Source: a virus (lineage: Duplodnaviria; Heunggongvirae; Uroviricota; Caudoviricetes). Taken from it: DNA of 64,000 nt. The first letter of the stretch is position 1, and each line of letters opens with the position of its first letter. A program made the position numbers and the translations under genes. The notes under the pieces are model-generated. The model was not told the DNA's origin. It saw nothing but the letters and a program-made list of their open reading frames with translations, and did not search any database. The stretch lies in the IMG/VR virus record IMGVR_UViG_2609460332_000008; one strand, written 5' to 3'. Below, piece after piece: positions 321 to 63,419 of this stretch.

Positions 321-321
321 A

Positions 322-3670: not shown

Positions 3671-3672
3671 GA

Positions 3673-4434: not shown

Positions 4435-4437
4435 AAA

Positions 4438-22675: not shown

Positions 22676-22677
22676 GC

Positions 22678-24717: not shown

Positions 24718-24718
24718 A

Positions 24719-25315: not shown

Positions 25316-25370
25316 AAAAGCACCTGTGAAGCAGATTTAAACGTGGTCTGCTTCATGGTGCCGGAGGCAT

Positions 25371-25396
25371 AAAAAAAGCCGGATTTACCGGCTTCA
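25371..25396 (-). promoter_or_regulatory. Dyad element, copy 2, about 60 bp upstream of the endolysin gene and just after mor
   Basis: Identical to 17636..17661; minus strand reads AAGCCGGTAAATCCGGCTTTTTTT. Confidence 0.6.
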
Positions 25397-25400
25397 TTGA

Positions 25401-25850
25401 TTAAGGGCGTCGTGGCGGACGACGAACGGGGTGAGGCAGGTTCGGGGAGGGGTAAAACAAATCCGGCTGGTATTTATTGCGCTCCAGACGTCGCATCCGT
25501 TTGATGGCCTTGTAGACGGTTTTATACGTCACCCCGTAACGCTGAACCAGTTCAGGAATATTATGGCCGTTAAAATCACGCCAGATACGCATATCCCGGA
25601 CAAGATTCTCCAGAATATTCCCCCTCGGAACATAAACCTGCATCCCGCCGATATGGCGACAAATCGCCACAACCAGCTCAAGGGAATGGGCAGGGTCTGC
25701 ACCAATCCGGGCCAGTTCTTTACGCAGCAGTGCGTTCAGTTCAGAAAGTAACGCCGGATAAGCGGTGTTTTCCTGGTAATCATGAAGATATTCCAGAACG
25801 CTGTCGTCCCGAAGGTCTTCGAATAAATCCTGCTCTTTCATCTGTTTCAT
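25401..25850 (-). CDS. mor: Mor/C-family transcription activator
   Basis: Matches the Mor/C family as I recall it (DLFEDLRDD..., ...GVTYKTVYKAIKRMRRL... HTH); sits directly after gemA. Confidence 0.8.
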   Translation of the reverse strand: MKQMKEQDLFEDLRDDSVLEYLHDYQENTAYPALLSELNALLRKELARIGADPAHSLELVVAICRHIGGMQVYVPRGNILENLVRDMRIWRDFNGHNIPELVQRYGVTYKTVYKAIKRMRRLERNKYQPDLFYPSPNLPHPVRRPPRRP

Positions 25851-26398
25851 ACAGCAATTCTCCCGCTGTTTCGTGCGCGGGCATACGCACTGGTCAGTGC
25901 ATCATAGCCGCGCAGCTCCCGCCCGGTTTCGCTCACAGGTAAAGGCACACCATGTCGGGCAAAGGCTTCCCGGATGCAGCGCATATGCCACTGTTTGAGC
26001 GTTTCGAGCACAATCTGCAACGATTCCCCGTGACACCATGCCAGCGTGGAAACACCCTGACCGCCATTACGTCTGGCCGTCAGGCGTTCAACGTATTTGT
26101 CCAGCGCGGCGTCGCTGATATCGGAAACGAAACCATCAAGGAACATCTGCTGCCAGATTTTGTAAATCTTCTCGCGCGGTGTGACATGCCCCTTAAAGCG
26201 ACGGCGGGGATGTTTTTTCTGCTTCTTAAAACCGCGCTCTTTCATGGCATCGAGCACCTGTTCCAGTTGTGCGACAGTCAGCTCGCGGCAACTGGTCTTG
26301 CCTGTGCACTGCACCAGAAAGGCGCGGTAAGTGTCATCGTCGAGTTGTAGATCACGACGGGCGACATGAATTAATTTAATCAGGGATGTGCGATTCAT
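25847..26398 (-). CDS. gemA: GemA-like protein (Mu gp16)
   Basis: GGAGG RBS before the ATG at 26398; position before mor. Confidence 0.65.
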   Translation of the reverse strand: MNRTSLIKLIHVARRDLQLDDDTYRAFLVQCTGKTSCRELTVAQLEQVLDAMKERGFKKQKKHPRRRFKGHVTPREKIYKIWQQMFLDGFVSDISDAALDKYVERLTARRNGGQGVSTLAWCHGESLQIVLETLKQWHMRCIREAFARHGVPLPVSETGRELRGYDALTSAYARARNSGRIAV

Positions 26399-26471
26399 TA
26401 TCGTACCTCCAGAAAAGGGGGCGGTGCGGCAACACCGCCAGAATCCACTCACTAAACAGAGGAAGCTTTTT

Positions 26472-26738
26472 ATGAAAAACAGTGAACAACCTTATGATGT
26501 TGCAGGGTATACCATTGCCTCAAGGTTGCTGATACTCCTTGTCAGAAAGGGGCTGATTACCGCAGAGGAAGGAAAAACAATCCTCAAATCCGCTGCAGTC
26601 GTAGCTGCAGAGGCTCCGGTATTGAGAACAACGAATGATTCCGCCCTGCAAATATCGCAGCTAATCACTGAAACCATCAGTTTGTTAGACCAAGATCCTG
26701 ATGAATATCAAAAGCCTCAGCCATCTGAGCATCCGTAA
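26472..26738 (+). CDS. Hypothetical 88-aa protein on the opposite strand to the surrounding operon; AT-rich
   Basis: GAGGA RBS 9 nt before the ATG; rare codons; 3' end overlaps the convergent gene 26677..26991 by ~60 bp. Confidence 0.45.
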   Translation: MKNSEQPYDVAGYTIASRLLILLVRKGLITAEEGKTILKSAAVVAAEAPVLRTTNDSALQISQLITETISLLDQDPDEYQKPQPSEHP

Positions 26739-26991
26739 GAATATCTTTATTTGATAGCCCCAGCCTGCGACGAATGTATTCCTCGCGGGCTGCTTCATTT
26801 TGTAGCGCCACGGCAGCTTCCACCTGGTTCATTTCACGGTTAATAATGCTCCGGACTTCTCTGGCGGTGAGGTCATGCTCAATACCATATTTAACGATAT
26901 CGTGCATACGTTCCAGCATCTTTAAATTAGCCATGACGCCATCAATATCAACTGGTGTGAATTTCATTTCTTTATTCTCTGGTTTATTCAT
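26677..26991 (-). CDS. Hypothetical 104-aa helical protein, AT-rich accessory gene
   Basis: GAGG RBS before the ATG at 26991. Confidence 0.5.
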   Translation of the reverse strand: MNKPENKEMKFTPVDIDGVMANLKMLERMHDIVKYGIEHDLTAREVRSIINREMNQVEAAVALQNEAAREEYIRRRLGLSNKDILTDAQMAEAFDIHQDLGLTN

Positions 26992-27166
26992 TTCGTAATA
27001 CCTCTTCGCAATAAAAGATTTCACTGGGATAACGTTTTTGTATGCGCTCCATCACCTGCATACATGCCTGTTCTGTGGGCCAGATTTTTTCCGTTACCGG
27101 AATGGCATCGCAGGCATCATTCCCACAGGTGCCAACCAGCAGGACAAAGCCAATTGACTTAATCAT
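26984..27166 (-). CDS. Small Cys-containing protein with hydrophobic N-terminus
   Basis: 60 aa, four Cys; start overlaps the upstream stop (ATGATTAA). Confidence 0.45.
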   Translation of the reverse strand: MIKSIGFVLLVGTCGNDACDAIPVTEKIWPTEQACMQVMERIQKRYPSEIFYCEEVLRNE

Positions 27167-27698
27167 GCTCGCTGATTTCCTGTGTTTCCGCCGGAACCGG
27201 TGAATAATCAAGAATGAGATAGCGCAGGACGTGGTCGGTGATATTCCAGCCACTGGAACCACAAATAAAGCGCCCCAGCCGGATATCGATATACGCCATC
27301 ACAAAACGGGGCATCCCCTGTTTGCACATCTCGTCATCCACTTCAGCAACGATGTAAACCGACTCGCAGGTCAGTACGCCTGTCGCAAATTCTTTTGCCA
27401 GTGCCGGAATTGCATTGCCTTCCAGCCAGGGCAAAGAGCGGCGGAACGCACACCATTGAGCATCATCAACAGCGGGGTGCTCCGTTGCGTTTCGTCTTAC
27501 AGGAGGCGTCGGACGAGGGCGCGGAACATCATAAAATCCGTTGCATTCTGTCAGCATTCCGGCATCAACCGCATCACGCAGGAAATACACCATTGACGAG
27601 GGAGGCATCTTCATTTTTTCAGCCAGAACGCCACAGGTCAGACGCCCGTAAGCCCGTAATAATGTGCTGACACCGTTCAGAACTTTTGCATCAACCAT
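27159..27698 (-). CDS. Hypothetical protein with helix-turn-helix-like N-terminus and Pro-rich linker
   Basis: AAGGA RBS; 179 aa; preceded by a 98-bp AT-rich gap after gam. Confidence 0.55.
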   Translation of the reverse strand: MVDAKVLNGVSTLLRAYGRLTCGVLAEKMKMPPSSMVYFLRDAVDAGMLTECNGFYDVPRPRPTPPVRRNATEHPAVDDAQWCAFRRSLPWLEGNAIPALAKEFATGVLTCESVYIVAEVDDEMCKQGMPRFVMAYIDIRLGRFICGSSGWNITDHVLRYLILDYSPVPAETQEISEHD

Positions 27699-27796
27699 TT
27701 TTTATTCCTTAGTAGTTTGTTTCAGGCGCGAGCAATCCCCTGACGCATCGCGCCATAATTAAAAGAAAGTGAATTAATTAAATATTCGTGGTGGTA

Positions 27797-28321
27797 TTAA
27801 ATACCGGCTTCCTGTTCAAACGGAATAATAGAAAAATCTTCAATGCCCGATTTAACTGTAATTCCGGCAACACCTGCGACCGCTTTCGGTTCCAGTAAAA
27901 TCGCTTCCTTGTTGATTTCCTGTTTCGTGCGAATAAAACGTTGCAGGCCAAGACGCTCCAGCGTTTCCATCACCGCATCCACACCGCGAATACTTACCGA
28001 TGGCGGGCGCTGACGCCATGACACATCGCCGGTTACCAGGTTTGCCGTCTTCACCTTGCCACCGTTCGTCAGTTCGTCGCGGTTCGCTTCACACCATCCC
28101 TGAACGCCTTTTGAAAGGGTTTCAATACTGGTTTTAAGTGGCGCAATCTGTGAGGCGTATTTCTCCGTAATATCAGCGATAGCGTCATTCATTTCCGTTT
28201 CAAGTCGTGCTGCTTCGCGTTGCAGGTCCCCAATCCGGCGGATATCACATACCACGGCATCGCGGGATTGCGGAACATAAGCCGCTGCGGCGTTCTTGAT
28301 TCGTTTTGCTGGTTTAGCCAT
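27797..28321 (-). CDS. gam: Gam, host-nuclease inhibitor (Ku-like DNA end binding)
   Basis: Near-identical to Mu Gam as recalled (MAKPAKRIK...VKTANLVTGDVSWR...FIRTKQEINKEAILLEPKAVAGVAGITVKSGIEDFSIIPFEQEAGI). Confidence 0.9.
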   Translation of the reverse strand: MAKPAKRIKNAAAAYVPQSRDAVVCDIRRIGDLQREAARLETEMNDAIADITEKYASQIAPLKTSIETLSKGVQGWCEANRDELTNGGKVKTANLVTGDVSWRQRPPSVSIRGVDAVMETLERLGLQRFIRTKQEINKEAILLEPKAVAGVAGITVKSGIEDFSIIPFEQEAGI

Positions 28322-28341
28322 ATAAATAAAGCTCCTGTTAA

Positions 28342-28632
28342 TTAATATTCACTGTATACAATGCTGGATACAGCACGATTGCTTAATTCCATCTTTTGGG
28401 CTATCACATGAATAGCTAGCCCTTCTTTATAAAGTTCACGACACAAATATTTGTCGTGCTCACTGATTCGGTAAACACACAACGATATTCCGTGCCTTCT
28501 GGCATGTGCCCGGAGAGCGGTTGTGGCAACTTTCAGTTTTTTCGCCATTTCTTCGACGGTCATTTTTCCGACATTGGCTTCGATAAATTCCCGGTCTTCG
28601 CGTGACCATCTTTTGCGAGGGATTATCATCAT
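28342..28632 (-). CDS. Small early protein with two HTH-like segments
   Basis: 96-aa ORF between B and gam. Confidence 0.5.
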   Translation of the reverse strand: MMIIPRKRWSREDREFIEANVGKMTVEEMAKKLKVATTALRAHARRHGISLCVYRISEHDKYLCRELYKEGLAIHVIAQKMELSNRAVSSIVYSEY

Positions 28633-28643
28633 GCCTCCTGCAA

Positions 28644-28913
28644 TTAATGTTTAGCTGCATCCGGGTTATACCGGAATAACTCGCCTTCGGCTTCCAGCCC
28701 AAGTTCTCTGGCTGACTTCAACAACTCCTGGGTTGCTTTTTCAATAATTTCAGGAGCCATGCTCTTGATAATGCCTGCCATCACGTCATGCGGTCCGATT
28801 TGCTCCTTAGGAGACTGTTCTTCCAGTTGCACACTCATTCCTACAAAGAAACCTCCTTTTTTCTGAAACTCAACATCTTCCATGCGGTTAAATTCAAAGA
28901 TTACTTTTTCCAT
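28644..28913 (-). CDS. Small early protein
   Basis: AAGGAG RBS before the internal ATG (MEKVIFEF...). Confidence 0.5.
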   Translation of the reverse strand: MEKVIFEFNRMEDVEFQKKGGFFVGMSVQLEEQSPKEQIGPHDVMAGIIKSMAPEIIEKATQELLKSARELGLEAEGELFRYNPDAAKH

Positions 28914-28954
28914 TTTGTTTCTCCTTTCAAATATCATTTGTCATATAGCAGGAT

Positions 28955-29236
28955 TTATTTACGTCTTACGCCTGCCTTACGTGGACGTGTAACCCTGAAT
29001 CTGACATCACGACAAAACTTAATTAATGCCTTTTGTGCCAGTCGCTGATTTGGCGCTTCCGGGATACCCGGAACCAGCAATTGCACCGGAGCTGTTCGGG
29101 AATGTCGCGCGAGTACTTCAATTGCATCTTTTACCGCTTTTTCTTCGCCGCTGATGACTGGTAAGGCACCATCAGGAACCTTATCGCCAAACTCAATCAG
29201 GCCACTGGCCCAGACATAAGCCGTAATTTTTTTCAT
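28955..29236 (-). CDS. Small early protein
   Basis: GGAG RBS; 93 aa. Confidence 0.5.
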   Translation of the reverse strand: MKKITAYVWASGLIEFGDKVPDGALPVISGEEKAVKDAIEVLARHSRTAPVQLLVPGIPEAPNQRLAQKALIKFCRDVRFRVTRPRKAGVRRK

Positions 29237-29239
29237 CTT

Positions 29240-29466
29240 TCATCTCCAGATAATCTGACAACCATTAAGGCGGGCCGTCCATACTGAACGGGCAACCCCT
29301 GATTTATGCTCCATAATTCTGATGGCGTTCCTGACCAGCTCCGGTGGCGGGCAGGTAATTTCAAGCACCGGGCGGGCTACGCCCAGCCAAGATTCGTTGA
29401 CGTGGCTGCCGCGCTCCTGTAACCAGGTCTTTACTTCCGTCGCCATTTTGATATTCCGTGACATCA
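29240..29466 (-). CDS. Small early protein following B
   Basis: AGGAGA RBS overlapping the B stop; tandem ATG ATG start. Confidence 0.5.
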
Positions 29467-29480
29467 TGATTTCGCTCTCC

Positions 29481-30419
29481 TTACGTGCGCAGCAGGGTTG
29501 AAATATCAACGTCCAGGTCTAATTCACGGAAAGCCTGACGCAGATAATCTTCATTAACACGTTCACCTTTGCCGTGGGCAGTCATGGCCGCAAGGCGCAG
29601 CGAGTGGTTCAGGATGCGAAGCGCACCTGGTTTTTGTGCAATCTGCTGTAATAATTCCCGCTCGTTTTCGCCGGTAATTTGCCAGGCATCCGCAATGGCT
29701 TTTACATCGTCAATTTTTGTTTTATTAATTGCCGTCCGCTTTGCAATACGGGAAAACAGGCGGGCAAATTCAACTGTTCTGTTACCACCGGTCATGTTTG
29801 AATAAACACGGTGATTCCCCATCAGAACAAGGCCAATACGGGCGGATTCCTGCAACAGGCGGAGTTCTTCCAGAACTTCAGCGCCAAGATGATCAGCTTC
29901 GTCGATAATGACCAGCCCCTGCGTACCTTCAAGGCGGCGTCGCAAAGCGCGGGAGAGCGGCCCTTTGCGGCGCGGTGCGTCATTCATTCCCAGTTCATAA
30001 GCCAGTTCAGTGAGACATTCCAGAACACTGGCGCAGGATGGGGTAATGGTGATCATCCAAACATTGTTATTGGTGCGACGAAATTCGCGGGCTGCTTCAG
30101 TTTTTCCCACACCTGGATTACCGCAGATAACAGAAATACTTTCAGTCAGACTGGCAAAACGCATACTCGTCCAGATTTGGCGTGCTGTTCTGGTTTCCAC
30201 AAAACGCGGTGGTTCTGGCAGCTCTGCGGCACGGTGATAGTTCTCCAGCCAGCGTTCCAGCGTCTGCGCAACACGTTCATTGTCGCCGTTGTACTTGTTA
30301 TTCACGAATGCGCTTAACGTTCCTGCGGCCACGCCGGACTCGCGGGCAATTTGTGCATAAGTGGCTTTTTCACTTTCTACAAGCGTGCGCAGTCCTGCGC
30401 GAATATCGGAAATATTCAT
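29481..30419 (-). CDS. B: MuB, ATP-dependent target-DNA activator
   Basis: 312 aa with Walker A GNPGVGKT; immediately after the transposase gene. Confidence 0.9.
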
Positions 30420-30456
30420 CTGAATAACCTCGTAATTAAATTTGTTTAAACGTTAA

Positions 30457-32448
30457 TTAAATGGCTTTTTTACGTCTGTTCTGTTCCAGAATATCCAGTG
30501 AATGATTCAGATATTCATCACGATCAGTTTCATATTCATCATCGGGGTCCTGGTATTTCACCTGCACCGTGTTACCGGAAGGCCGGAAAATACCAACAAC
30601 CCTTGATTCTGGCGCTGCTGGTTCGGCTATCTGCGGCAGCAGTTCAGCAACTTCCAGCGCGTCCATTTGCTTCTGCGCCTTAATGGCTGCTTTAGTTGCA
30701 GATTTCAGTTGCTTCTGGCGGCGGCGATATTCACGGCCTGCCGCAGCATCATTAAACGCAACAGGTGCCAGACATTCCGCTTCACATATAAACCGACCCT
30801 CCAGGGTGTAGCAATAAACTGTGCTGTGTAGCTGCTGCGGATCAAACCTGACCACAACTTTTTTCACTCCGGCATTCATTAACGCCATGTTGTAATAAAC
30901 GTTTTTCGCGCCTTTAAGGGAGCCGCCAACTTTAAGCGTAAACTCGCCTTTGCGTGAAACGTTCACCGCTTCGGCAGGCAGTAACAGCATCCGTTTTTGT
31001 TCTTCGGTTGGCTTACGCACAATCGTTCTGACGTATTCACGCTCGAAAACATCATCAAACGAGAGTTTGCCCCCGCACATTTCTGTTTCACGGCCTGTTC
31101 TGGCATTGAACATCGCAACACCTTCAGCAAGGGTTTTCAGAAACAGCTCTGCATCAACAGCACGGTCGCCATAGTTATCAGGTTTTGCCTGCGGATTTGG
31201 CCCCGTATATGCGCCAGCCAGTGCCGGATGCTTATCAACGTATTCCTCAAGCCCACCAACACCGAAAGCACGTTCAACAGGTTTTGCCTGGCCCCAGCCT
31301 TTACCGGCAACAACGCTTGTCCAGTGCATTTTTGCGCCCATCAGTAAAAACAGCCCCTTTGGATCGTCCTCTTTTACCTTAAAGCGGTAACGATTGGGCG
31401 CGCCCCCCGTCAGCCATTTATTCGCTGCACCACGGGTGTTATCAATGGTGATGTGAAAATCCTCCGGGATACCGTAGCGAGTCACAACATCCATGAACGA
31501 GAGGCGAATTGAATCAATGTTCTCGCTCACATCGCAGCGCCAGCCCAGGATTTTTCGGGTTTTCACATCCTGCCAGAACCATGTTTTCGGGCGGATCACA
31601 TCACCGTTAAACCAGCGTACAAAGACGTTATGCAGATAACCGTCGCCGTTGATCCACTGCATGGCGTCCAGGTGTTCCACAGTTCGCTGCTGTGCAGGTA
31701 TCAGATGCATCAGTGCATGTTCACCTTCACGGCAGGCAACAACCATTGCCTCGTCCAGTTGCTGAATCCGGCGAAAGGCCGTGGCACGGGAGGGAATATT
31801 CCAGCCATGCTCACGTGCTGCCAGTTCCAGACGCTCATAACATTTGCGAAAGGCGGGTTTTTCCGGTCGCAGATAATCTGCAATCAGAAACTGCCAGGCA
31901 TCCTCGTCAAATTCACTTTTGTGAACGTTGCGACGGGATGCACCACGTCCATCAACAAGCGCAGCCGCCCAGTCAGGCTTCGCAAACTTCTGTACCTGGT
32001 AATATTTGTCTCGCAAAGTGGATGCGCTGACCTGGTAATGTCCTGCAACGGTCGCAAATGCCGTTTTCGTTGAAATCCCCTGGTTCAGCATTTCGTCTGC
32101 AGCCTGAACCGCAGGCAACCATTTTTCAGCAAGTTTGCGCTGGGAATCGCTGGCGTTATCCCATTTGCTCCACAGTGCCTCACGATCATAATCATGGGCT
32201 TCCAGCGTGGGGCGGGCGATTTCAAAACGGCCCTGGCTTGTTTCAATCTCTCCTTGTCTAAGCAATAACGCCGCTTTCGCTTCAACAGGTAAAGAGTTAG
32301 CATTGTATTCAATTGCTTTACCTCCTTTGACACCTGCTCTAGTGCGGTTTTGCCATCCTTGCTTCTTAGCGACATAAATCACACCAGCTGATGTTTTCGG
32401 CAAGCCAGGAAGATTTGCACACTCTTTCGGTGACACCCAAAGTTCCAT
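30457..32448 (-). CDS. A: MuA DDE transposase
   Basis: 663 aa from the ATG at 32448 (AGGTGA RBS), the length I recall for MuA; follows ner. Confidence 0.9.
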
Positions 32449-32449
32449 A

Positions 32450-32677
32450 TTATTCACCTGCTTGATATCGGCTAGGCCAGATGACTTCCGGTTTAGTTTC
32501 AAGGGCGTTAGCAATAATCTGTTCGCCCTTTGGCCAGTGCCGTTCTAGCGCATTAGCTAATGTTGTTGGCGCATAACCAAACTGCCGAGAAAGAGCTGAT
32601 AAAGAGAGCTTTCTTTTCTTAAGTCCCGCAATCACATCAGCACGATGCCAATCACGGACCTTTTCGTTGGAACACAT
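32450..32677 (-). CDS. ner: Ner, DNA-binding negative regulator of early transcription
   Basis: 75 aa with the Ner HTH region; directly upstream of A. Confidence 0.85.
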
Positions 32678-32845
32678 TTAAAAACCCTCCTAAGTTTTGT
32701 AATCTATAAAGTTAGCAATTTAACTAAGTGCAAAAACTTAGTTTACTTGCCAAAAAGATAAATACTGAAAAGTCTTTTGTAAAGTGACTTTTTAGTATTG
32801 TTGATCATGTTTTGTGTATTATGTTGAAAAATAAGGGTTTAAATT
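32678..32845. promoter_or_regulatory. Operator/early promoter region between ner and c
   Basis: 168-bp AT-rich divergent intergenic region with repeated CTGAAAAGT-like motifs. Confidence 0.65.
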
Positions 32846-33436
32846 TTGAAAAGTAACTTTATAGAATCTGGTGATACTGAAAAGTCAATCTGGTGTACGC
32901 CGCAAGAAATTATGGCTGCTGATGGTATGCCTGGATCTGTTGCAGGTGTTCACTATCGGGCAAATGTTCAAGGCTGGACAAAGCGAAAAAAGGAAGGTGT
33001 GAAGGGGGGTAAAGCAGTTGAATACGATGTGATGTCTATGCCCACCAAAGAACGAGAGCAAGTTATTGCACACCTAGGTCTGTCTATTCCTGGCACTGCT
33101 GCTCAAGCTAATGAGCAGCAGGATTCTTCGGAGCTGATAAACAAATTAACCACAACCTTAATCAATATGATTGAAGAACTGGAACCAGATGAAGCACGTA
33201 AGGCACTGAAACTATTAAGCAAAGGTGGGCTACTGGCGTTAATGCCACTTGTATTTAATGAACAGAAACTTTACAGCTTTATAGGATTTTCACAGCAAAG
33301 TATCCAGACGTTGATGATGCTAGATGCATTACCTGAAGAAAAACGCAAAGAGATTTTGTCAAAGTATGGGATTAATGAACAGGAGAGTCTTGTAGCTCCT
33401 TTGCAGGATCCACAAGATGTAAAAAAAGCCGTATAA
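32846..33436 (+). CDS. c: Mu-type repressor c
   Basis: 196 aa, divergent from ner/A/B as in Mu. Confidence 0.85.
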   Translation: MKSNFIESGDTEKSIWCTPQEIMAADGMPGSVAGVHYRANVQGWTKRKKEGVKGGKAVEYDVMSMPTKEREQVIAHLGLSIPGTAAQANEQQDSSELINKLTTTLINMIEELEPDEARKALKLLSKGGLLALMPLVFNEQKLYSFIGFSQQSIQTLMMLDALPEEKRKEILSKYGINEQESLVAPLQDPQDVKKAV

Positions 33437-33599
33437 CAACCAGGAATCTAGCTAAAACACGCACTTTCCCTCAAGTAACCTAGAGGGTAAGATACTGAAA
33501 CAACAAAACCTGTTTTTGATATACGTCATTCGCCAGAAGCCTGGTTGTTATCGGGTTTGAAGCGTTTTTGAAGCTGCAATTGAAATAATGCGTGAAGCA

Positions 33600-33776
33600 A
33601 TTGCTTTTCGTATGTTTAATGAAACAAAAGCCATTTCTAACAATCTTTCGCGTTTCAATGCTTAACGGCTAAAATTTGCTCTACAGGCTTGCAAGCCCCA
33701 CCAAATCTAATCCCGTCAAATCCCGAATAATCCAATATCCTCCCGGTTTTTTTCGTACTTCTCGTGAATCAATACA
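33600..33776. promoter_or_regulatory. Mu left end (attL) with L1-type transposase-binding sequence
   Basis: Reverse complement reads TGTATTGATTCACGAGAAGTACGAAAAAAACCGGGAGGATATTGGATTATTCGGGATTTGACGGG..., ~93% identical to the Mu left end as recalled. Confidence 0.8.
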
Positions 33777-33781
33777 CCAGC
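33777..33781. repeat. 5-bp target-site duplication CCAGC, copy at the Mu left end
   Basis: Identical to 202..206. Confidence 0.85.
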
Positions 33782-35323
33782 CAAAATAATGCATTGGCTG
33801 ATGGAAAACAGAGAAATATGGTAACTGTAAGCCTTGCGGACCGTTTCGGCAATGTTGTTCCTGGTTATGCTGTCACATTGTCTTTACCAGCAGGGATAAC
33901 TCAAGTTGGTGGTGAACATGCTGTTTCAACTGACGAAAATGGTAATGCTATTTTTGCGTTAATAAGCTCCACTCCGGGGTCTTACGTGATTACAGCTCAT
34001 GCTGGTTCTCAGATGTCTACTGAGTTAACAGTGACCTTTGCATCAAATATGACCGGAGCTTCACTGTCACTGACGCCTGAAAGCAGTAGTTTAATTTCCA
34101 ATATTCCTGCTAATGGTAAGGATGCAGCGGTATTAGATGTGCAGCTGACAAATACGAATGCGTCGGTCAATGGGCAAAAGATTCAGCTCATCACCTCATC
34201 TGAAGGATTATCTGTACCAACAAATATCGTGACTGATTCAACAGGGCATGTTTCTGTTCCGCTTACAACGGTGAAAGCTGGTGAGTACACGGTGACTGCA
34301 CGGGTGACTGACGGTTCCCATAGCGTGGAATCTGGCAGCGTTAAGTTAACTTTTGTGCCCGATGTTGCTTCTGCAGAACTGAATATGAGTGTATCAAAAC
34401 AGGAGATTGTGGCCGATGGCAGTGAAAACGCAACAGTAAACATTCAGTTGGTTGATGCGAATAACAATGCGTTTACAGGCGAGGTGGATTTAACGATTAC
34501 ACCATCGACGGGAGCATCATTGACCAGTAGTAATCTGCAACTGGATGCTCATGGACAGGCAACAACGCAGTTCACTGCATCGAAATCAGGCCAGTACACA
34601 ATTCAGGCCGAGTATGTTCTGGATGGGAAACGCATAACCGCAAGCCAGAATATTGATGCCGTGACGGATGTGAAGGGGGCTGTGTTGGAGATCACATCAT
34701 CTGCATCTTCGGCTGTAGTGAGCGATACCAACAATCTGGTATTTACGTTACTGTTGAAAAGTAAGTCAGGCGAAGCATTAAGTGGTCGAGCATTGAATGT
34801 TAAGACATCTGGGCCGTCTAAATATGGTGCGTTGGTGGTTGATAAAACCACAGTAACGACTGATGAGAACGGTCAGGCTACGGTAAGCGTACATGGTCGA
34901 ACGGTTGGTTCGTATAAATTAACGGCGACCTTAAACGAACTTGGCAGTGATGTTAGCGCGGTGAAATCATTCTCCCTGTACGCTGATGACGCAAATGGAG
35001 TATTGACTCTAACAAAAGATCCTGGTTATGAGACAAACGATGGATCTCCAGTAGGTATTTATGCTCGATTTGTCGATCATTTTGGAAACCCATTATCTGG
35101 TACGGTTGAGTTTTCTGCTGGTAGTGAAGATAGTCCAGACTCTCAACGGGTCAAAATGGAGCCTGCTACAGTAACGTTACACTGGACAGGTAATGCAGCT
35201 TCGGAATTCAGCACCTATGAAAGTGGTTATCACTGGATTAAGGCCAAAATAACGAATAGCAAAAATACATATGAGAAAACAATAAGGACTTATGTTGTAA
35301 AACTACCTGAAAAGGATAGTTAA
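33777..35323 (+). pseudogene. Host Ig-like-repeat adhesin gene, downstream segment after the Mu-like insertion
   Basis: Repeated ~90-aa beta-rich segments typical of bacterial Ig-like domains; in frame with 1..206 across the insertion. Confidence 0.7.
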
Positions 35324-40520: not shown

Positions 40521-40814
40521 TTATTGTGAGCAATACACACGCGCTTCCAGCGGAGTATAAATGCCTAAAGTAATAAAACCGAGCAATCCATTTACGAATG
40601 TTTGCTGGGTTTCTGTTTTAACAACATTTTCTGCACCACCACAAATTTTTGCTGCATCGACAGTTTTCTTCTGCCCAATTCCCGAAACGAAGAAATGATG
40701 GGTGATGGTTTCCTTTGGTGTTACTGCTGTAGGTTTGTTTCCAACAGTAAACGTCTGTTGAGCACATCCTGTAATAAGCATTGCCAGAGCGGCAGAAAAC
40801 AACATTTTTTTCAT
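40521..40814 (-). CDS. bor: Bor serum-resistance lipoprotein
   Basis: MKKMLFSAALAMLITGCAQQTFTV... matches lambda Bor; opposite strand between Rz and cos as in lambda. Confidence 0.9.
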   Translation of the reverse strand: MKKMLFSAALAMLITGCAQQTFTVGNKPTAVTPKETITHHFFVSGIGQKKTVDAAKICGGAENVVKTETQQTFVNGLLGFITLGIYTPLEARVYCSQ

Positions 40815-52093: not shown

Positions 52094-52516
52094 ATGTTCC
52101 TGAAAACCGAATCATTTGAATATAACGGCGTGACCGTCACGCTTTCTGAACTGTCAGCCCTGCAGCGTATTGAGCATCTTGCCCTGATGAAACGGCAGGC
52201 AGAACCGGCGGGATCCGACAGCAACCGGCAGGTTACTGTGGAAGACGTCATCAGAACCGGCGCGTTTCTGGTGGCGATGTCCCTGTGGCATAACCATCCG
52301 AAGAAGACGCAGATGCCGTCCATGAATGAAGCCGTTAAACAGATTGAGCAGGAAGTGCTTACCACCTGGCCCACAGAGGCAATTTCTCATGCTGAAAACG
52401 TGGTGTACCGGCTGTCCGGTATGTATGAGTTTGTGGTGAATAATGCCCCCGAACAGGCAGAGGACGCCGGGCCTGCAGAGCCTGTTTCTGCGGGAAAGTG
52501 TTCGACGGTGAGCTGA
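52094..52516 (+). CDS. G: Tail assembly chaperone G
   Basis: 140 aa; ends just after the slippery heptamer G-GGA-AAG (~52490..52496). Confidence 0.9.
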   Translation: MFLKTESFEYNGVTVTLSELSALQRIEHLALMKRQAEPAGSDSNRQVTVEDVIRTGAFLVAMSLWHNHPKKTQMPSMNEAVKQIEQEVLTTWPTEAISHAENVVYRLSGMYEFVVNNAPEQAEDAGPAEPVSAGKCSTVS

Positions 52517-55486: not shown

Positions 55487-55812
55487 AGACCTTCCGCTGG
55501 AAAGTGAAACCCGGTATGGATGTGGCTTCGGTCCCTTCTGTAAGAAAGGTGCGCTTTGGTGATGGCTATTCTCAGCGAGCGCCTGCCGGGCTGAATGCCA
55601 ACCTGAAAACGTACAGCGTGACGCTTTCTGTCCCCCGTGAGGAGGCCACGGTACTGGAGTCGTTTCTGGAAGAGCACGGGGGCTGGAAATCCTTTCTGTG
55701 GACGCCGCCTTATGAGTGGCAGCAGATAAAGGTGACCTGCGCAAAATGGTCGTCGCGGGTCAGTATGCTGCGTGTTGAGTTCAGCGCAGAGTTTGAACAG
55801 GTGGTGAACTGA
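55483..55812 (+). CDS. M: Tail tip protein M
   Basis: 109 aa, MKTFRWKVKPGMDVASVPSVRKVRFGDGYSQRAPAGLNANLKTYSV... Confidence 0.9.
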   Translation: MKTFRWKVKPGMDVASVPSVRKVRFGDGYSQRAPAGLNANLKTYSVTLSVPREEATVLESFLEEHGGWKSFLWTPPYEWQQIKVTCAKWSSRVSMLRVEFSAEFEQVVN

Positions 55813-56509
55813 TGCAGGATATCCGGCAGGAAACACTGAATGAATGCACCCGTGCGGAGCAGTCGGCCAGCGTGGTGCTCTGGGAAATCGACCTGACAGA
55901 GGTCGGTGGAGAACGTTATTTTTTCTGTAATGAGCAGAACGAAAAAGGTGAGCCGGTCACCTGGCAGGGGCGACAGTATCAGCCGTATCCCATTCAGGGG
56001 AGCGGTTTTGAACTGAATGGCAAAGGCACCAGTACGCGCCCCACGCTGACGGTTTCTAACCTGTACGGTATGGTCACCGGGATGGCGGAAGATCTGCAGA
56101 GTCTGGTCGGCGGAACGGTGGTCCGGCGTAAGGTTTACGCCCGTTTTCTGGATGCGGTGAACTTCGTCAACGGAAACAGTTATGCCGATCCGGAGCAGGA
56201 GGTGATCAGCGCTGGCGCATTGAGCAGTGCAGCGAACTGAGCGCGGTGAGTGCCTCCTTTGTACTGTCCACGCCGACGGAAACGGATGGCGCTGTTTTTC
56301 CGGGACGTATCATGCTGGCCAACACCTGCACCTGGACCTATCGCGGTGACGAGTGCGGTTATAGCGGTCCGGCTGTCGCGGATGAATATGACCAGCCAAC
56401 GTCCGATATCACGAAGGATAAATGCAGCAAATGCCTGAGCGGTTGTAAGTTCCGCAATAACGTCGGCAACTTTGGCGGCTTCCTTTCCATTAACAAACTT
56501 TCGCAGTAA
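55812..56509 (+). pseudogene. L: Tail tip protein L, disrupted by a 1-nt deletion frameshift (two ORFs: 55812..56240 and 56246..56509)
   Basis: First ORF matches the gpL N-terminus, second (different frame, no ATG) matches the gpL C-terminus with Cys cluster; break near 56208..56212, where lambda reads ATCAGCCGCTGG by memory and this reads ATCAGCGCTGG. Confidence 0.75.
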
Positions 56510-56513
56510 TCCC

Positions 56514-57257
56514 ATGACACAGACAGAATCAGCGATTCTGGCGCACGCCCGGCGATGTGCGCCAGCGGAGTCGTGTGGCTTCGTGGTGAGAACGCCGAAG
56601 GGGGAAAGATATTTTCCCTGCGTGAATATCTCCGGTGAGCCGGAGGCGTATTTCCGGATGTCGCCGGAGGACTGGCTGCGGGCAGAGATGCAGGGTGAGA
56701 TTGTGGCGCTGGTCCACAGCCACCCCGGTGGTCTGCCCTGGCTGAGTGAGGCTGACAGGCGGCTGCAGGTGCAGAGCGATTTGCCGTGGTGGCTGGTCTG
56801 CCGGGGTGAGATTCATAAATTCCGCTGTGTGCCGCATCTTACCGGGCGGTGCTTTGAGCACGGGGTGACGGACTGTTACACGCTGTTCCGGGATGCTTAT
56901 CATCTGGCGGGGATTGAGATGCCGGATTTTCATCGCGGGGATGACTGGTGGCGTCACGGTCAGAATCTCTATCTGGATAATCTGGAGGCCACAGGGCTGT
57001 ATCAGGTGCCGTTGTCATCAGCACAACCGGGCGATGTGCTGCTGTGCTGTTTTGGTTCATCGGTGCCGAATCATGCCGCCATTTACTGTGGTGATGGCGA
57101 GCTGCTGCACCATATTCCTGAACAACTGAGCAAACGAGAGAGGTATACCGACAAATGGCAGCGACGCACACACTCCCTCTGGCGTCACCGGGCATGGCGC
57201 GCATCTGCCTTTACGGGGATTTACAACGATTTGGCCGCCGCATCGACCTTCGTGTGA
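56514..57257 (+). CDS. K: Tail tip assembly protein K (JAB/MPN plus NlpC/P60-like)
   Basis: MTQTESAILAHARRCAPAESCGFVV... with HSHP metal-site motif. Confidence 0.9.
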   Translation: MTQTESAILAHARRCAPAESCGFVVRTPKGERYFPCVNISGEPEAYFRMSPEDWLRAEMQGEIVALVHSHPGGLPWLSEADRRLQVQSDLPWWLVCRGEIHKFRCVPHLTGRCFEHGVTDCYTLFRDAYHLAGIEMPDFHRGDDWWRHGQNLYLDNLEATGLYQVPLSSAQPGDVLLCCFGSSVPNHAAIYCGDGELLHHIPEQLSKRERYTDKWQRRTHSLWRHRAWRASAFTGIYNDLAAASTFV

Positions 57258-57856: not shown

Positions 57857-60800
57857 ATGGGTAAAGGCAGCAGTAAGGGGCATACCCCGCGCGAAGCGAA
57901 GGACAACCTGAAGTCCACGCAGCTGCTGAGTGTGATCGATGCCATCAGCGAAGGGCCGGTTGAAGGTCCGGTGGATGGATTAAAAAGCGTGCTGCTGAAC
58001 AGTACGCCGGTGCTGGACAGTGAGGGGAATACCAATATATCCGGCGTCACGGTGGTGTTCCGGGCCGGTGAGCAGGAGCAGTCACCGCCGGAGGGATTTG
58101 AATCCTCCGGCTCCGAGACGGTGCTGGGTACGGAAGTGAAATATGACACGCCGATCACCCGGACCATCACGTCGGCAAACATCGACCGTCTGCGCTTTAC
58201 CTTCGGTGTACAGGCACTGGTGGAAACCACCTCAAAGGGAGACAGGAATCCGTCGGAAGTTCGCCTGCTGGTTCAGATACAGCGTAACGGTGGCTGGGTG
58301 ACGGAAAAAGACATCACCATTAAGGGCAAAACCACCTCGCAGTATCTGGCCTCGGTGGTGGTGGATAACCTGCCGCCGCGCCCGTTTAATATCCGGATGC
58401 GCAGGATGACGCCGGACAGCACCACAGACCAGCTGCTGAACAAAACGCTCTGGTCGTCATACACCGAAATCATCGATGTGAAACAGTGCTACCCGAACAC
58501 GGCACTGGTTGGCGTGCAGGTGGACTCGGAGCAGTTCGGCAGCCAGCAGGTGAGCCGTAATTATCATCTTCGCGGGCGCATTCTGCAGGTGCCGTCGAAC
58601 TATAACCCGCAGACGCGGCAATACAGCGGTATCTGGGACGGAACGTTAAAACCGGCATACAGCAACAACATGGCCTGGTGTCTGTGGGATATGCTGACCC
58701 ATCCGCGCTACGGCATGGGGAAACGTCTTGGTGCGGCGGATGTGGATAAATGGGCGCTGTATGTCATCGGCCAGTACTGCGACCAGTCGGTGCCGGACGG
58801 CTTTGGCGGCACGGAGCCGCGCATTACCTGTAATGCGTACCTGACCACACAGCGCAAGGCGTGGGATGTGCTCAGTGATTTCTGCTCGGCGATGCGCTGT
58901 ATGCCGGTATGGAACGGGCAGACGCTGACGTTCGTGCAGGACCGACCATCAGATAAGGTGTGGACCTATAACCGCAGTAATGTGGTGATGCCGGATGATG
59001 GCGCGCCGTTCCGCTACAGCTTCAGCGCCCTGAAGGACCGCCATAATGCCGTTGAGGTGAACTGGATTGACCCGGATAACGGCTGGGAGACGGCGACAGA
59101 GCTCGTGGAGGATACGCAGGCCATTGCCCGTTACGGCCGTAACGTCACGAAGATGGATGCCTTTGGCTGTACCAGCCGGGGGCAGGCACACCGCGCCGGG
59201 CTGTGGCTGATTAAAACGGAGCTGCTGGAAACGCAGACCGTGGACTTCAGCGTGGGTGCTGAAGGGCTTCGCCATGTACCGGGGGATGTCATTGAAATCT
59301 GCGATGATGACTATGCCGGTATCAGCACCGGTGGTCGTGTGCTGGCGGTGAACAGCCAGACCCGGACGCTGACGCTCGACCGTGAAATCACGCTGCCATC
59401 CTCCGGTACCACGCTGATAAGCCTGGTTGACGGAAGTGGCAATCCGGTCAGCGTGGAGGTTCAGTCCGTCACCGACGGCGTGAAGGTGAAAGTGAGCCGT
59501 GTTCCTGACGGTGTTGCTGAATACAGCGTATGGGGGCTGAAGCTGCCGACGCTGCGCCAGCGACTGTTCCGCTGCGTGAGTATCCGTGAAAACGACGACG
59601 GCACGTATGCCATCACCGCCGTGCAGCATGTGCCGGAAAAAGAGACCATCGTGGATAACGGGGCGCACTTTGACGGCGAACAGAGTGGCACGGTGAATGG
59701 TGTCACGCCGCCCGCGGTGCAGCACCTGACCGCAGAAGTCACCGCAGACAGCGGGGAATATCAGGTGCTGGCGCGATGGGACACACCGAAGGTGGTGAAG
59801 GGGGTGAGCTTTATGCTTCGCCTGACCGTGGCAGCGGATGACGGCAGTGAGCGGCTGGTCAGCACGGCCAGGACGACGGAAACCACATACCGCTTCAGGC
59901 AACTGGCGCTGGGGAACTACAGGCTGACAGTCCGGGCGGTAAATGCGTGGGGGCAGCAGGGGGATCCGGCGTCGGTATCGTTCCGGATTGCCGCACCGGC
60001 AGCGCCATCGCGGATTGAGCTGACGCCGGGCTATTTTCAGATAACCGCAACGCCGCATCTTGCCGTTTATGATCCGACGGTACAGTTTGAGTTCTGGTTC
60101 TCGGAAAAGCGGATTGCGGATATCAGGCAGGTTGAAGCCAGCGCGCGTTATCTTGGTACGGCGCTGTACTGGATAGCCGCCAGTATCAATATCAAACCGG
60201 GCCATGATTATTATTTTTACATTCGCAGTGTGAACACCGTTGGCAAATCGGCATTTGTGGAGGCTGTTGGCCAGCCGAGTGATGATGCATCCGGCTATCT
60301 GGATTTTTTCAAAGGAGAGATAGGGAAAACCCATCTGGCTCAGGAGTTGTGGACGCAGATTGATAACGGTCAGCTTGCGCCTGACCTGGCTGAAATCAGG
60401 ACGTCCATTACGGATGTCAGCAATGAAATCACGCAGACCGTCAATAAGAAACTGGAAGACCAGAGTGCAGCGATCCAGCAGATACAGAAGGTTCAGGTTG
60501 ATACAAATAATAACCTGAACAGCATGTGGGCTGTGAAGCTGCAGCAGATGCAGGACGGACGCCTTTATATCGCGGGTATTGGTGCCGGTATTGAGAATAC
60601 CCCTGACGGTATGCAGAGTCAGGTGCTGCTGGCGGCGGACAGGATTGCGATGATTAATCCTGCGAATGGCAATACAAAGCCGATGTTTGTTGGGCAGGGC
60701 GATCAGATATTCATGAACGAAGTGTTCCTGAAATATCTGACGGCTCCCACCATTACCAGCGGTGGCAATCCCCCAACGTTTTCACTGACACCTGATGGTC

Positions 60801-61339
60801 GACTTTCTGCGAGAAATGCGGATATCAGCGGTAACGTGAATGCGAACTCCGGGACGCTCAATAATGTCACGATTAACCAGAACTGTCGGATTCTGGGAAA
60901 ACTGTCAGCTAACCAGATTGAAGGTGATATTGTCAAAACGGTGGGAAAAGCCTTTCCGAGAAATGGCAGTTATGCCAGCGGTACAATAACGGTCACTGTG
61001 TACGATGACCAGGCTTTTGACCGTCAGATAGTCGTCCCCCCCGTTCTGTTTCGCGGTGGTAAGCATGAAAACTTCAACAGCAACAACCAACAGTCATACT
61101 GGTATTCAACCTGTAAGCTGCAGGTGCTGAAGAACGGACAGGAAATCTTTCAGCAACCCGCGACGGATGTCAGCAGGGTATTTTCATCAGTCATTGATAT
61201 GCCTGCCGGACACGGCCATGTCACCCTGACTTTCAATGTTTCTTCATATGGTGCAAATAACTGGACGCCAACGACCAGTATCAGCGACCTTCTTGTTGTC
61301 GTGATGAAGAAATCAACAGCCGGCATCAGTATCAGTTGA
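57857..61339 (+). CDS. J: Central tail fibre / host-specificity protein J, with divergent C-terminal receptor-binding region
   Basis: 1160 aa; N-terminal ~1000 aa lambda-J-like; last ~150 aa differ from lambda J as I recall it. Confidence 0.85.
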
Positions 61340-61397
61340 ATTTTAAAACCCAAATTCGGGCACCAGAAATGGTGCCTTTTTTATTTGTGGAGTGAAT

Positions 61398-63419
61398 ATG
61401 GCAGTACAGATTTCAGGTGTGCTGAAAGACGGTGCAGGAAAACCGATACAGAACTGCACCATTCAGCTCAAAGCAAAACGTAACAGCACCACAGTTGTGG
61501 TGAACACGGTGGCCTCAGAAAATCCGGATGAAGCCGGACGTTACAGCATGGATGTTGAGTATGGCCAGTACAGCGTCGCCCTGCTGGTTGAAGGTTTTCC
61601 GCCTTCACATGCCGGGACCATCACCGTGTATGAGGATTCTAAGCCGGGGACATTGAATGATTTTCTGGGCGCTGCAACAGAAGATGATGTTTGTCCGGAG
61701 GCACTGTATCGTTTTGAAAAGATGGTGGAAGAGGCGGCACGCAACGCTGAAGCCGCCTCTCAGAGCGCAGCGGCAGCAAAGAAATCAGAAACAGCAGCGG
61801 CATCGTCCAGGAACGCGGCGAAAACATCAGAGACGAATGCAGGTAACAGCGCGAAAGCGGCAGCTTCTTCAAAAACAGCCGCACAAAACGCAGCAACAGC
61901 GGCAGAACGTTCAGAGACAAATGCCCGTGCGTCAGAAGAAGCCTCCGCAGACAGTGAAGAGGCTTCCCGCCGTAATGCAGAGTCAGCCGCTGAAAATGCC
62001 GGAGTCGCCACCACAAAAGCGCGGGAGGCCGCAGCAGACGCAACAAAGGCCGGGCAGAAAAAGGATGAGGCTCTGTCGGCAGCGACACGAGCTGAAAAGG
62101 CGGCAGACCGCGCAGAAGCCGCAGCGGAAGTGACTGCAGAGCCCTGTGCGAATATAGTGCCGCCGCTGCCTGATGTGTGGATACCGTTTAACGATTCACT
62201 GGATATGATTACGGGTTTTTCGCCATCTTATAAAAAGATAGTTATTGGTGACGATGAAATAACAATGCCAGGCGACAAGATTGTTAAGTTTAAACGTGCT
62301 TCAACAGCAACGTATATTAATAAGTCCGGCCAACTCAAGCTTGCTGAAGTTGACGAACCGCGATTTGAGCGCGATGGCTTATTGATTGAAGGACAGAGGA
62401 CAAATTATCTGAGGAACTCAAATAAACCAGACTCATGGACTGTTCATTCCGCACTGAATAAAACATTTGGCACTGATAAACAGGGGTTCAATTATGCCAC
62501 GGTGACACCCACGGAAAGTATAGTGGGAACAACAGGTGGCTATACTGTGCATGGTGTGGTTGCAGCAGACAGATTCCCGCTGGCAAGTGGTGAATGTTTC
62601 ACTTTTTCGTGCCGGGTTAAAGGCGCTAAAGCACGATGCAGGTTAAGAGTTTCAGTTATTATTGGTGGAACAGATACCTTCTCTGCTGACTCTTATCTTG
62701 ATCTGGATACCCGGATCGCAACAGTAAGCGGTAATACATCCCTTATAACAGCCAAAGCTGAACAACAGGGCGAGTGGACCTACTATGAGGCCACTTATAC
62801 AGCTAATACGGACATTGATACCGTTAACTGTGCTTTTTATATGACAAATAAAATAAGTAATGAGACATTCTATGATGACTCAACATTAACCATGACGACG
62901 CCGCAAATTGAACTGGGCAATACGGCATCGTCATTTATTGTAACTACAATGCCAACAACACGCGCAAGTGATGTAGTTACTATCCCATCGCAGAATAACC
63001 TGTCAACACGGCCTTTTACGGTATTGTGCGAAGTAAGCAGGAACTGGAGTACACCGCCCAATGTTGCGCCAAGGATATTTGATGTTGGAGGGCACAGTAT
63101 TGATGATAATTATTTATCGCTGGGGTTTGTTGCAACAGGAAAGATAAGCGCCAACGTAGGAATGGTTCAGCCACAAATTGCCTCAGATGGAGAAAGGTTC
63201 ATTGTGGGTGTGAGAGCTAAATCTGATTTATCAGTAAATGCAATATGCAATGGTAATTATACAACAAACCTTAATGGTAAAATATTTGGAGTTACAGCAA
63301 CATCGTACCGGTTTGGTGGGCAGACCGCAGCAGGAACGCGTCATTTGTTTGGACACATCAGAAATTTCAGAGTCTGGTTTAAAGAATTAAATGACAGGCA
63401 AATCAAGGAGGCAGTATGA
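61398..63419 (+). CDS. stf: Side tail fibre Stf with variant, low-GC C-terminal domain
   Basis: MAVQISGVLKDGAGKPIQNCTIQLKA... lambda Stf N-terminus, Ala/Ser-rich shaft, then a ~420-aa divergent AT-richer distal domain. Confidence 0.8.
   Translation: MAVQISGVLKDGAGKPIQNCTIQLKAKRNSTTVVVNTVASENPDEAGRYSMDVEYGQYSVALLVEGFPPSHAGTITVYEDSKPGTLNDFLGAATEDDVCPEALYRFEKMVEEAARNAEAASQSAAAAKKSETAAASSRNAAKTSETNAGNSAKAAASSKTAAQNAATAAERSETNARASEEASADSEEASRRNAESAAENAGVATTKAREAAADATKAGQKKDEALSAATRAEKAADRAEAAAEVTAEPCANIVPPLPDVWIPFNDSLDMITGFSPSYKKIVIGDDEITMPGDKIVKFKRASTATYINKSGQLKLAEVDEPRFERDGLLIEGQRTNYLRNSNKPDSWTVHSALNKTFGTDKQGFNYATVTPTESIVGTTGGYTVHGVVAADRFPLASGECFTFSCRVKGAKARCRLRVSVIIGGTDTFSADSYLDLDTRIATVSGNTSLITAKAEQQGEWTYYEATYTANTDIDTVNCAFYMTNKISNETFYDDSTLTMTTPQIELGNTASSFIVTTMPTTRASDVVTIPSQNNLSTRPFTVLCEVSRNWSTPPNVAPRIFDVGGHSIDDNYLSLGFVATGKISANVGMVQPQIASDGERFIVGVRAKSDLSVNAICNGNYTTNLNGKIFGVTATSYRFGGQTAAGTRHLFGHIRNFRVWFKELNDRQIKEAV

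What the first reader, a model, noticed from the sequence alone, without database searches (positions are those of the whole stretch)
56160..56260. Tail tip gene L broken by a single-nucleotide deletion
The two adjacent ORFs together make up the L protein but lie in different frames. The break maps near 56208..56212, where the lambda reference as I recall it has AGCCGC and this sequence has AGCGC. gpL is essential for tail tip assembly, so if real the prophage cannot form infectious tails even though every other morphogenesis gene is intact.
Basis: partly seen in the sequence, partly recalled or inferred. Interest (0 to 1): 0.45.

Follow-up and report, generated by a model that had tools for sequence, protein, structure and literature searches.

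The report
Likely sequencing-error frameshift in gene L
The tail-tip gene L of this lambda-like prophage really is split by one missing C in the sequence given, but the same missing base recurs in unrelated error-prone assemblies and never in finished genomes, so it is most likely a sequencing artefact rather than a dead gene.

Summary
Gene L (55812..56509) is split into 142-aa and 87-aa ORFs by loss of one C from CAGCCGCTGG, leaving a single C at 56210. It is the only difference from finished genomes across 30.2 kb.

The biological reading is doubtful. The window equals draft contig CBWJ010000074.1 (GCA_000529615.1). The deletion occurs in no complete E. coli genome out of 5,426, and in none of 50,697 phage records. 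It does occur in a sister draft from an adjacent accession, which has 4 more one-base indels and no substitutions in 17.7 kb. It also occurs in a metagenome contig that is true lambda with 2 mismatches and 25 gap columns, and in noisy gut-metagenome contigs of a third haplotype. In those noisy contigs, deletions are mostly C/G lost from short runs. CC sites in the context CAGCC are hit far more often than other CC sites, even with this site excluded (p=3e-4). That points to a context-specific base-calling artefact (about 0.75). A real deletion confined to two isolates remains possible (about 0.2).

Even if real, it would not be the only lesion. A 33.6-kb Mu-like prophage (207..33776, 5-bp duplication) splits this lambdoid prophage, taking it to about 76 kb.

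The parts
55812..56240 (+). N-terminal ORF of gene L: gpL residues 1-133, then 9 out-of-frame residues (AGALSSAAN) and a TGA stop
   Evidence: the product hits Pfam PF05100 Phage_tail_L
56209..56211 (+). Deletion site: G-C-G where every reference has G-C-C-G. One C of a CC pair is missing, and the local sequence becomes the perfect palindrome CAGCGCTG (56207..56214)
56211..56509 (+). C-terminal two-fifths of gene L in the -1 frame (gpL residues 134-232). The mechanical ORF starts at GTG 56246 (87 aa). Encodes the end of the hub HDI domain and the whole [4Fe-4S] domain with Cys173/182/205/212
   Evidence: domain limits from PMC10721106
55483..55812 (+). Gene M (distal tail protein), intact, immediately upstream
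56514..57257 (+). Gene K (C40 peptidase family, 247 aa), intact, immediately downstream. Contains TGCGCCAGCGG (56558..56568), the inverted partner of CCGCTGGCGCA at the L site
207..33776 (-). Mu-like transposable prophage inserted into the inverse-autotransporter gene of the lambdoid prophage (context: a second and certain lesion of the same prophage)
33777..33781 (.). CCAGC, the right copy of the 5-bp target-site duplication (left copy at 202..206)

Best explanation
The missing C is most likely a context-specific sequencing or consensus error carried in the public draft assembly from which the window was taken (GCA_000529615.1, contig CBWJ010000074.1, position 56645). It is probably not a mutation in the bacterium. 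Steps that are shown: the lesion is one C lost from a two-base run in the context CAGCC. The same loss appears in at least three independent projects on three different L haplotypes. All of those assemblies have indel-dominated error profiles, and no finished genome or phage record has it. Steps that are inferred: the draft was produced with an indel-prone, flow-type chemistry (454 or Ion Torrent era, 2013). In that case random indels were removed by coverage and one systematic under-call of CC survived in the consensus. The real prophage would then encode a normal 232-aa gpL.
For: (1) The window is identical to CBWJ010000074.1. Only one other assembly, GCA_000529555.1 (CBWR, an adjacent accession), encodes the same truncated protein. 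(2) That sister assembly has 4 further private one-base indels (+T, +T, -A in an A7 run, +T in a T5 run) and 0 substitutions in 17.7 kb. They break Z, H and I. This pattern is not natural decay, so that assembly is demonstrably indel-prone. (3) A 49-nt junction query that can only match the deleted allele finds nothing in 5,426 complete E. coli genomes, which hold 9,560 L-like places, and nothing in 50,697 phage records. At least 120 IMG/VR contigs carry the wild-type junction against 1 with the mutant one. (4) That one contig (L007) is true lambda, with 2 mismatches but 25 gap columns in 10.7 kb, and one of its indels is exactly this C. The chance of an indel landing on a named site there is about 0.002. 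(5) Four noisy human-gut contigs of a third haplotype all carry it too. (6) In these five contigs, 34 of 41 isolated one-base deletions are C/G and 29 of those lie in runs of 2 or more. CC sites preceded by CAG are deleted in 9/63 cases against 4/1169 for other CC sites (p=8e-10). Excluding this site the figures are 4/58 (p=2.7e-4). Another site (lambda 16912) is shared between two unrelated projects. (7) Published description of Ion Torrent high-frequency indels: single-base, C/G deletions in 2-3-mers, A/T insertions, causing frameshifts in assemblies (PMC3623719). (8) There are 0 substitutions beside the deletion in 30.2 kb.
Against: The sequencing platform of CBWJ/CBWR could not be established, and no reads are available. 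The window's assembly is otherwise very clean: this is the only uncompensated one-base indel in about 56 kb of near-identical comparison. The artefact therefore has to be an unusually penetrant one. Two assemblies sharing the lesion is also what a real inherited mutation would give. The four gut contigs come from one study and could represent one real strain. According to the cited paper, most Ion Torrent high-frequency indels are run-specific rather than reproducible.
Confidence: 0.75

Rival explanations
1. A real, very recent one-base deletion inherited by a small clade (the two draft isolates). It truncates gpL after residue 133, so the prophage cannot build a tail tip. This is ordinary prophage decay by frameshift.
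For: The lesion is present in two separately deposited assemblies. The window assembly shows no other uncompensated indel in about 56 kb. The prophage in this strain is already disabled by a Mu-like insertion, so L would be free of selection. gpL residues 134-232 include part of the HDI hub domain and all four Fe-S cysteines, so the truncation would be inactivating.
Against: There are no accompanying substitutions in 30 kb. The deletion is absent from all finished genomes, which include hundreds with the identical 22-kb region. The identical lesion in lab-type lambda DNA and in a third haplotype needs a separate explanation. The sister assembly's other frameshifts are clearly errors.
Confidence: 0.2
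2. A genuine mutational hotspot. Loss of the central C turns the quasi-palindrome CAGC-C-GCTG into the perfect palindrome CAGCGCTG, for example by template-switch correction, so the same deletion arises repeatedly in vivo in lambdoid prophages.
For: The deletion does create a perfect 8-bp palindrome. It occurs on three haplotypes. A chimeric metagenome contig (L034) breaks exactly at this site, where an 11-bp inverted repeat links L and K.
Against: No case among 9,560 L-like places in finished genomes, many of them in defective prophages. Every carrier is an assembly with many other C/G run deletions. The 4-bp arms are too short for a stable hairpin. The inverted partner in K keeps CC, so it could not template the loss.
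Confidence: 0.03
3. The split is functional. Full-length gpL would be restored by a -1 ribosomal frameshift, or the two fragments would be made separately (TGA 56238..56240, restart at GTG 56246) and assemble together.
For: A -1 shift is the right direction to compensate a one-base deletion. The stop and the GTG are only 5 nt apart. The same operon uses a programmed -1 shift in G/GT (GGGAAAG at 52492).
Against: There is no X_XXY_YYZ heptamer and no homopolymer of 5 or more in the zone 56132..56240 where the -1 frame is open. There is no convincing Shine-Dalgarno sequence before the GTG. All homologues have a single ORF. The cut lies inside the HDI beta-sandwich domain.
Confidence: 0.02

Closest known systems
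Bacteriophage lambda gpL (tail tip hub protein, Pfam PF05100 Phage_tail_L; PDB 8iyk, 8iyl, 8k35, 8xcg, 9e7m)
   Same: With the C restored, the product is 231/232 identical to lambda gpL and 232/232 identical to the L of phage Perceval and of the EC958 prophage. The gene order is the same (H-M-L-K-I-J) and the four Fe-S cysteines are the same.
   Different: In the window the reading frame is broken after codon 133 by one missing base.
Systematic single-base indel errors of flow-based sequencers (Ion Torrent 'high-frequency indels', Bragg et al. 2013, PMC3623719; 454 homopolymer miscalls)
   Same: A single C deleted from a run of two. It recurs at the same site in independent noisy assemblies. 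The accompanying errors are C/G deletions in short runs and A/T insertions. It produces a frameshift in an assembly.
   Different: The platform of this assembly is unknown. The paper reports most such errors as run-specific, whereas this one appears in every noisy assembly that covers the site.
Frameshift pseudogenes of cryptic lambdoid prophages, and the stf frameshift of laboratory lambda
   Same: A one-base frameshift in a tail gene of a lambdoid element. The lambda stf frameshift is mentioned in PMC10721106.
   Different: Those lesions are reproducibly found in finished sequences of the lineage. This one is found in no finished sequence.

Membership tests
Lambda gpL / Phage_tail_L (PF05100) | Full-length sequence similarity to gpL | tested here: met
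   The repaired translation is 231/232 identical to lambda gpL. phmmer against PDB 8iyk_L gives E=4.6e-160 over residues 1-232. Both fragments hit PF05100.
Lambda gpL / Phage_tail_L (PF05100) | One continuous ORF of about 232 codons | tested here: not met
   In the window as given the gene is split into 142 aa + 87 aa in two frames.
Lambda gpL / Phage_tail_L (PF05100) | Four conserved cysteines that ligate the [4Fe-4S] cluster (Cys173, 182, 205, 212) | tested here: met
   All four are encoded, but only in the downstream frame (positions from PMC10721106).
Lambda gpL / Phage_tail_L (PF05100) | Position in the tail-tip gene block H-M-L-K-I-J | tested here: met
Context-specific sequencing/consensus artefact | The same lesion recurs in independent error-prone assemblies, whatever the haplotype | tested here: met
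   Found on the ST131-type haplotype, true lambda and a third haplotype, in at least 3 projects.
Context-specific sequencing/consensus artefact | Absent from finished, high-accuracy sequences | tested here: met
   0 of 5,426 complete E. coli genomes and 0 of 50,697 phage records.
Context-specific sequencing/consensus artefact | Belongs to a measurable error class in the carrier assemblies | tested here: met
   CAGCC sites are deleted in 4/58 cases against 4/1169 for other CC sites, excluding this site (p=2.7e-4). 34 of 41 isolated deletions are C/G.
Context-specific sequencing/consensus artefact | Reads of this isolate disagree with the consensus, or show strand bias at the site, or an independent chemistry restores the base | not testable with these tools
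   No reads are available, and the platform of CBWJ/CBWR was not found.
Real prophage pseudogene | Lesion reproduced in independently sequenced relatives | tested here: inconclusive
   Two assemblies carry it, but they have adjacent accessions and one of them is demonstrably indel-prone.
Programmed -1 ribosomal frameshift | Slippery X_XXY_YYZ heptamer in the frame overlap, and a two-frame arrangement conserved in homologues | tested here: not met
   No heptamer in 56132..56240. All homologues examined have a single frame.
Mu-like transposable prophage (the insert at 207..33776) | Mu-type ends, 5-bp target duplication, MuA/MuB transposition genes | tested here: met
   Ends are TGTATTGATTCAC... 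and TGAAGCGGCGCACGAAAAACGCGAAA. The target duplication is CCAGC. Transposase (PF02914, PF09299) and MuB (PF09077) genes are present, and mom/com is 89% identical to Mu.

The most novel reading that the evidence does not exclude
The deletion is real and recurrent: CAGC-C-GCTG is an in-vivo hotspot whose collapse to the perfect palindrome CAGCGCTG repeatedly knocks out the tail-tip hub gene in lambdoid prophages, a built-in route to prophage domestication.
Probability: 0.04. Interest if true: 0.45.

Novelty: not a real feature. Interest (0 to 1): 0.08.

Why it matters
If the deletion were real, it would be one more frameshift pseudogene in a prophage that a Mu-like insertion has already disabled. 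That is routine prophage decay of little general interest. The practical value is as a caution: this frameshift, and others in CAGCC or short C/G-run contexts, can propagate from older draft and metagenome assemblies into pseudogene counts and 'defective prophage' calls. The site (lambda coordinate 13827) could serve as a quick marker of this error class, because lambda DNA is so often sequenced.

Tried and rejected
- Programmed or transcriptional frameshift rescue: rejected. There is no slippery heptamer and no homopolymer in the overlap zone.
- Quasi-palindrome or template-switch origin using the 11-bp inverted repeat in K: rejected as a mechanism, because the partner keeps CC.
- Whether the sister assembly shares the Mu-like insertion, which would show clonality. 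The MuB product is too widespread to be informative. The 519-aa junction ORF is not on record. The 501-aa truncated autotransporter product and the 145-aa Mu repressor product returned only the window's own assembly in this context. The test is inconclusive but leans towards the sister lacking the insertion.
- Literature search for the accessions CBWJ/CBWR/GCA_000529615/GCA_000529555: the only hit was an unrelated accession (JACBWJ...), so the strain identity and sequencing platform stay unknown.
- L033 carries the 87-aa product only because the contig starts inside L. L034 is an inverted chimera. Neither counts as a carrier.
- The insertion at lambda 14266 that all sequences share, including the intact references, is a peculiarity of the J02459 record and not of these assemblies.

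Full report
**What is in the sequence.**
The ORF list shows gene L as two adjacent ORFs in different frames: 55812..56240 (142 aa) and 56246..56509 (87 aa). I aligned 56100..56320 with lambda J02459, phage Perceval and the EC958 prophage. A single gap appears: every reference reads CAGCCGCTGG and the window reads CAGCGCTGG, with the surviving C at 56210. Over the 698 bases of L this is the only difference from Perceval and EC958. Lambda differs at two further positions, 56094 (M95L) and 56183 (silent). Restoring the C gives a 232-aa protein identical to those L proteins and 231/232 identical to lambda gpL.

**Consequence if the deletion were real.**
- The frame shifts after residue 133, adds nine wrong residues and stops.
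- The lambda tail structure places the hub HDI domain at residues 1-166. The [4Fe-4S] domain spans 154-232, with ligands Cys173/182/205/212 (PMC10721106; PDB 8iyk and others).
- The cut therefore lies inside the hub domain and removes the whole Fe-S domain.
- No rescue is apparent. The zone 56132..56240, where the downstream frame is open, has no X_XXY_YYZ heptamer and no homopolymer of five or more. The GTG at 56246 has no convincing ribosome-binding site.

**Where the window comes from.**
- An exact-product look-up finds the truncated 142-aa protein in only two public contigs. One is CBWJ010000074.1 of GCA_000529615.1, which is base-identical to the window (window 1 = contig 436). The other is CBWR010000058.1 of GCA_000529555.1.
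- Window 33777..64000 matches the finished chromosome NZ_CP023844.1, and hundreds of other ST131-type genomes, with 0 mismatches and 1 gap in 30,225 columns.

**Is the deletion anywhere else?**
- I used a 49-nt query centred on the junction. Each arm is shorter than megablast's 28-nt word, so wild-type copies cannot match. It finds nothing in 5,426 complete E. coli genomes, although 4,334 of them hold 9,560 L-like places. It also finds nothing in 50,697 phage records.
- That one contig (L007) is lambda itself. Over 10.7 kb it has 2 mismatches and 25 gap columns. Natural divergence does not produce that profile, so its indels are sequencing errors, and one of them is this C.
- The look-up of the 87-aa product and the metagenome scan add four contigs from one human-gut study: ERZ504554, plus OQEB, OQHV and OQER. 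They have k-mer coverage 0.5-2.9 and a third L haplotype, and all carry the deletion.

**The error class.**
- I placed every indel on lambda coordinates. Site 13827 (this C) is the only true indel shared by all seven assemblies. The other shared site, 14266, is also present in intact references, so it reflects the old J02459 record.
- The five noisy contigs hold 41 isolated one-base deletions. Of these, 34 are C or G, and 29 of those lie in runs of two or more.
- Several sites recur between contigs: 12709, 13466, 15093 and 15409. Site 16912 is shared between L007 and L155, which come from different projects.
- Three of the deletions share the context CAG[C]C. Across contigs, two-base C runs preceded by CAG are deleted in 9/63 cases, against 4/1169 for other CC sites (Fisher p=8e-10). 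Leaving out site 13827, the figures are 4/58 against 4/1169 (p=2.7e-4).
- The same contigs have H, I and J broken in the same manner.

**The sister draft.**
Relative to the window, and hence to the finished reference, the sister assembly has four private one-base indels in 17.7 kb and no substitutions:
- +T at 48494;
- +T at 50842;
- -A in an A7 run at 53036;
- +T in a T5 run at 57648.

These break Z, H and I. Five frameshifts with no substitutions is not natural decay, so that assembly is indel-prone. Its profile and the shared C deletion match the published description of Ion Torrent errors. Those are A/T insertions, C/G deletions in 2-3-mers and under-called long runs, and they lead to frameshifts in assemblies (PMC3623719). 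I could not establish the platform of either draft, so the platform assignment is an inference.

**Evidence on the other side.**
- The window's own assembly is clean. Besides the 30.2-kb comparison, window 8000..33776 differs from strain KFu019 by about six substitutions and no gaps.
- The gaps at 749..7078 lie in a diverged block and are compensated pairs or an in-frame triplet.
- The L deletion is thus the only uncompensated one-base indel in about 56 kb.
- This fits a highly penetrant systematic error that survives good coverage. It equally fits a real mutation shared by two related isolates.
- I put the artefact at about 0.75, a real clade-restricted deletion at about 0.2, and a true mutational hotspot or a functional split at a few per cent together. 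The hotspot idea rests on the deletion turning CAGC-C-GCTG into the perfect palindrome CAGCGCTG.

**The prophage is not otherwise intact.**
- Window 1..206 continues in the reference directly into 33777 onward, with a 5-bp overlap.
- The intervening 33,570 bases (207..33776) have canonical Mu ends and a CCAGC target duplication. They also carry MuA- and MuB-type genes, a full set of Mu-like head and contractile-tail genes, and a mom/com module 89% identical to Mu.
- The element sits inside the inverse-autotransporter gene, between replication gene P and the ybcN-Q-lysis-morphogenesis block. No complete genome shares this junction.
- The reference prophage, integrated at icd, is about 42.3 kb. 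With the insert it would be about 76 kb.
- From established knowledge of lambda cos packaging limits (roughly 78-105% of 48.5 kb), such a genome could not be packaged. The insert also separates Q and the late genes from the early promoter.
- So even a real L lesion would be a second hit in a prophage that is already disabled.

**Verdict.**
- The most likely status is an assembly artefact, and the interest is low.
- The decisive test is read-level or Sanger evidence at CBWJ010000074.1:56645.

Noticed in passing
window 207..33776 (target duplication CCAGC at 202..206 and 33777..33781): A complete-looking 33.6-kb Mu-like transposable prophage. It has Mu-type ends, repressor, ner-like, MuA, MuB, gam, mor, head and contractile-tail genes, and com/mom. 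It is inserted inside the inverse-autotransporter gene of the lambdoid prophage, so one prophage is nested in another. It is 99.4% identical overall to a Mu-like prophage at a different chromosomal site in strain KFu019. This insertion junction is found in no complete E. coli genome.
   Followed up: yes
window 1..206 and 33777..35323: The inverse-autotransporter (intimin/invasin-like, Big_1/Invasin_D3 repeats) cargo gene of the lambdoid prophage is cut in two by the Mu-like insertion. Other genomes show the same gene interrupted by IS66-family elements at other points.
   Followed up: partly
window 56210..56219 and 56558..56568: In intact L, an 11-bp inverted repeat (CCGCTGGCGCA in L, TGCGCCAGCGG in K) lies about 350 bp apart. 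A 640-nt metagenome contig (L034, ERZ917294) is an inverted chimera joined exactly at this repeat, probably a template-switch artefact.
   Followed up: partly
lambda J02459 coordinate 14266 (window ~56649): Every other sequence examined has one extra G here relative to J02459. This includes the lambda-derived contig L007 and the intact references. With the G, gene K reads as a 247-aa C40 peptidase starting right after L, instead of the 199-aa K annotated in J02459.
   Followed up: no
window 52492..52498: The GGGAAAG slippery heptamer of the known lambda G/GT programmed -1 frameshift is present at the G-T overlap (G 52094..52516, T frame to 52932).
   Followed up: partly
window 61392..63419: A 675-aa side-tail-fibre-like ORF is open in the window, but PGAP annotates the identical sequence in finished genomes as two partial pseudogenes (N-terminal tail-fibre domain plus head-spike-fibre domain). 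It looks like a chimeric fibre gene.
   Followed up: no
window 57857..61339: J is 1160 aa against 1132 aa in lambda, and it diverges from lambda towards the C-terminal receptor-binding end. This suggests a different receptor specificity from lambda.
   Followed up: no
window ~40521..40814 (- strand): A bor/iss (increased serum survival) lipoprotein gene lies downstream of the lysis genes, followed by a TonB-family ORF. These are virulence-associated cargo of this prophage.
   Followed up: no
sister contig L029 (GCA_000529555.1), equivalent to window 48494, 50842, 53036, 57648: Four private one-base indels with no substitutions break Z, H and I in the sister assembly. Any pseudogene count from that assembly would be inflated.
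   Followed up: yes
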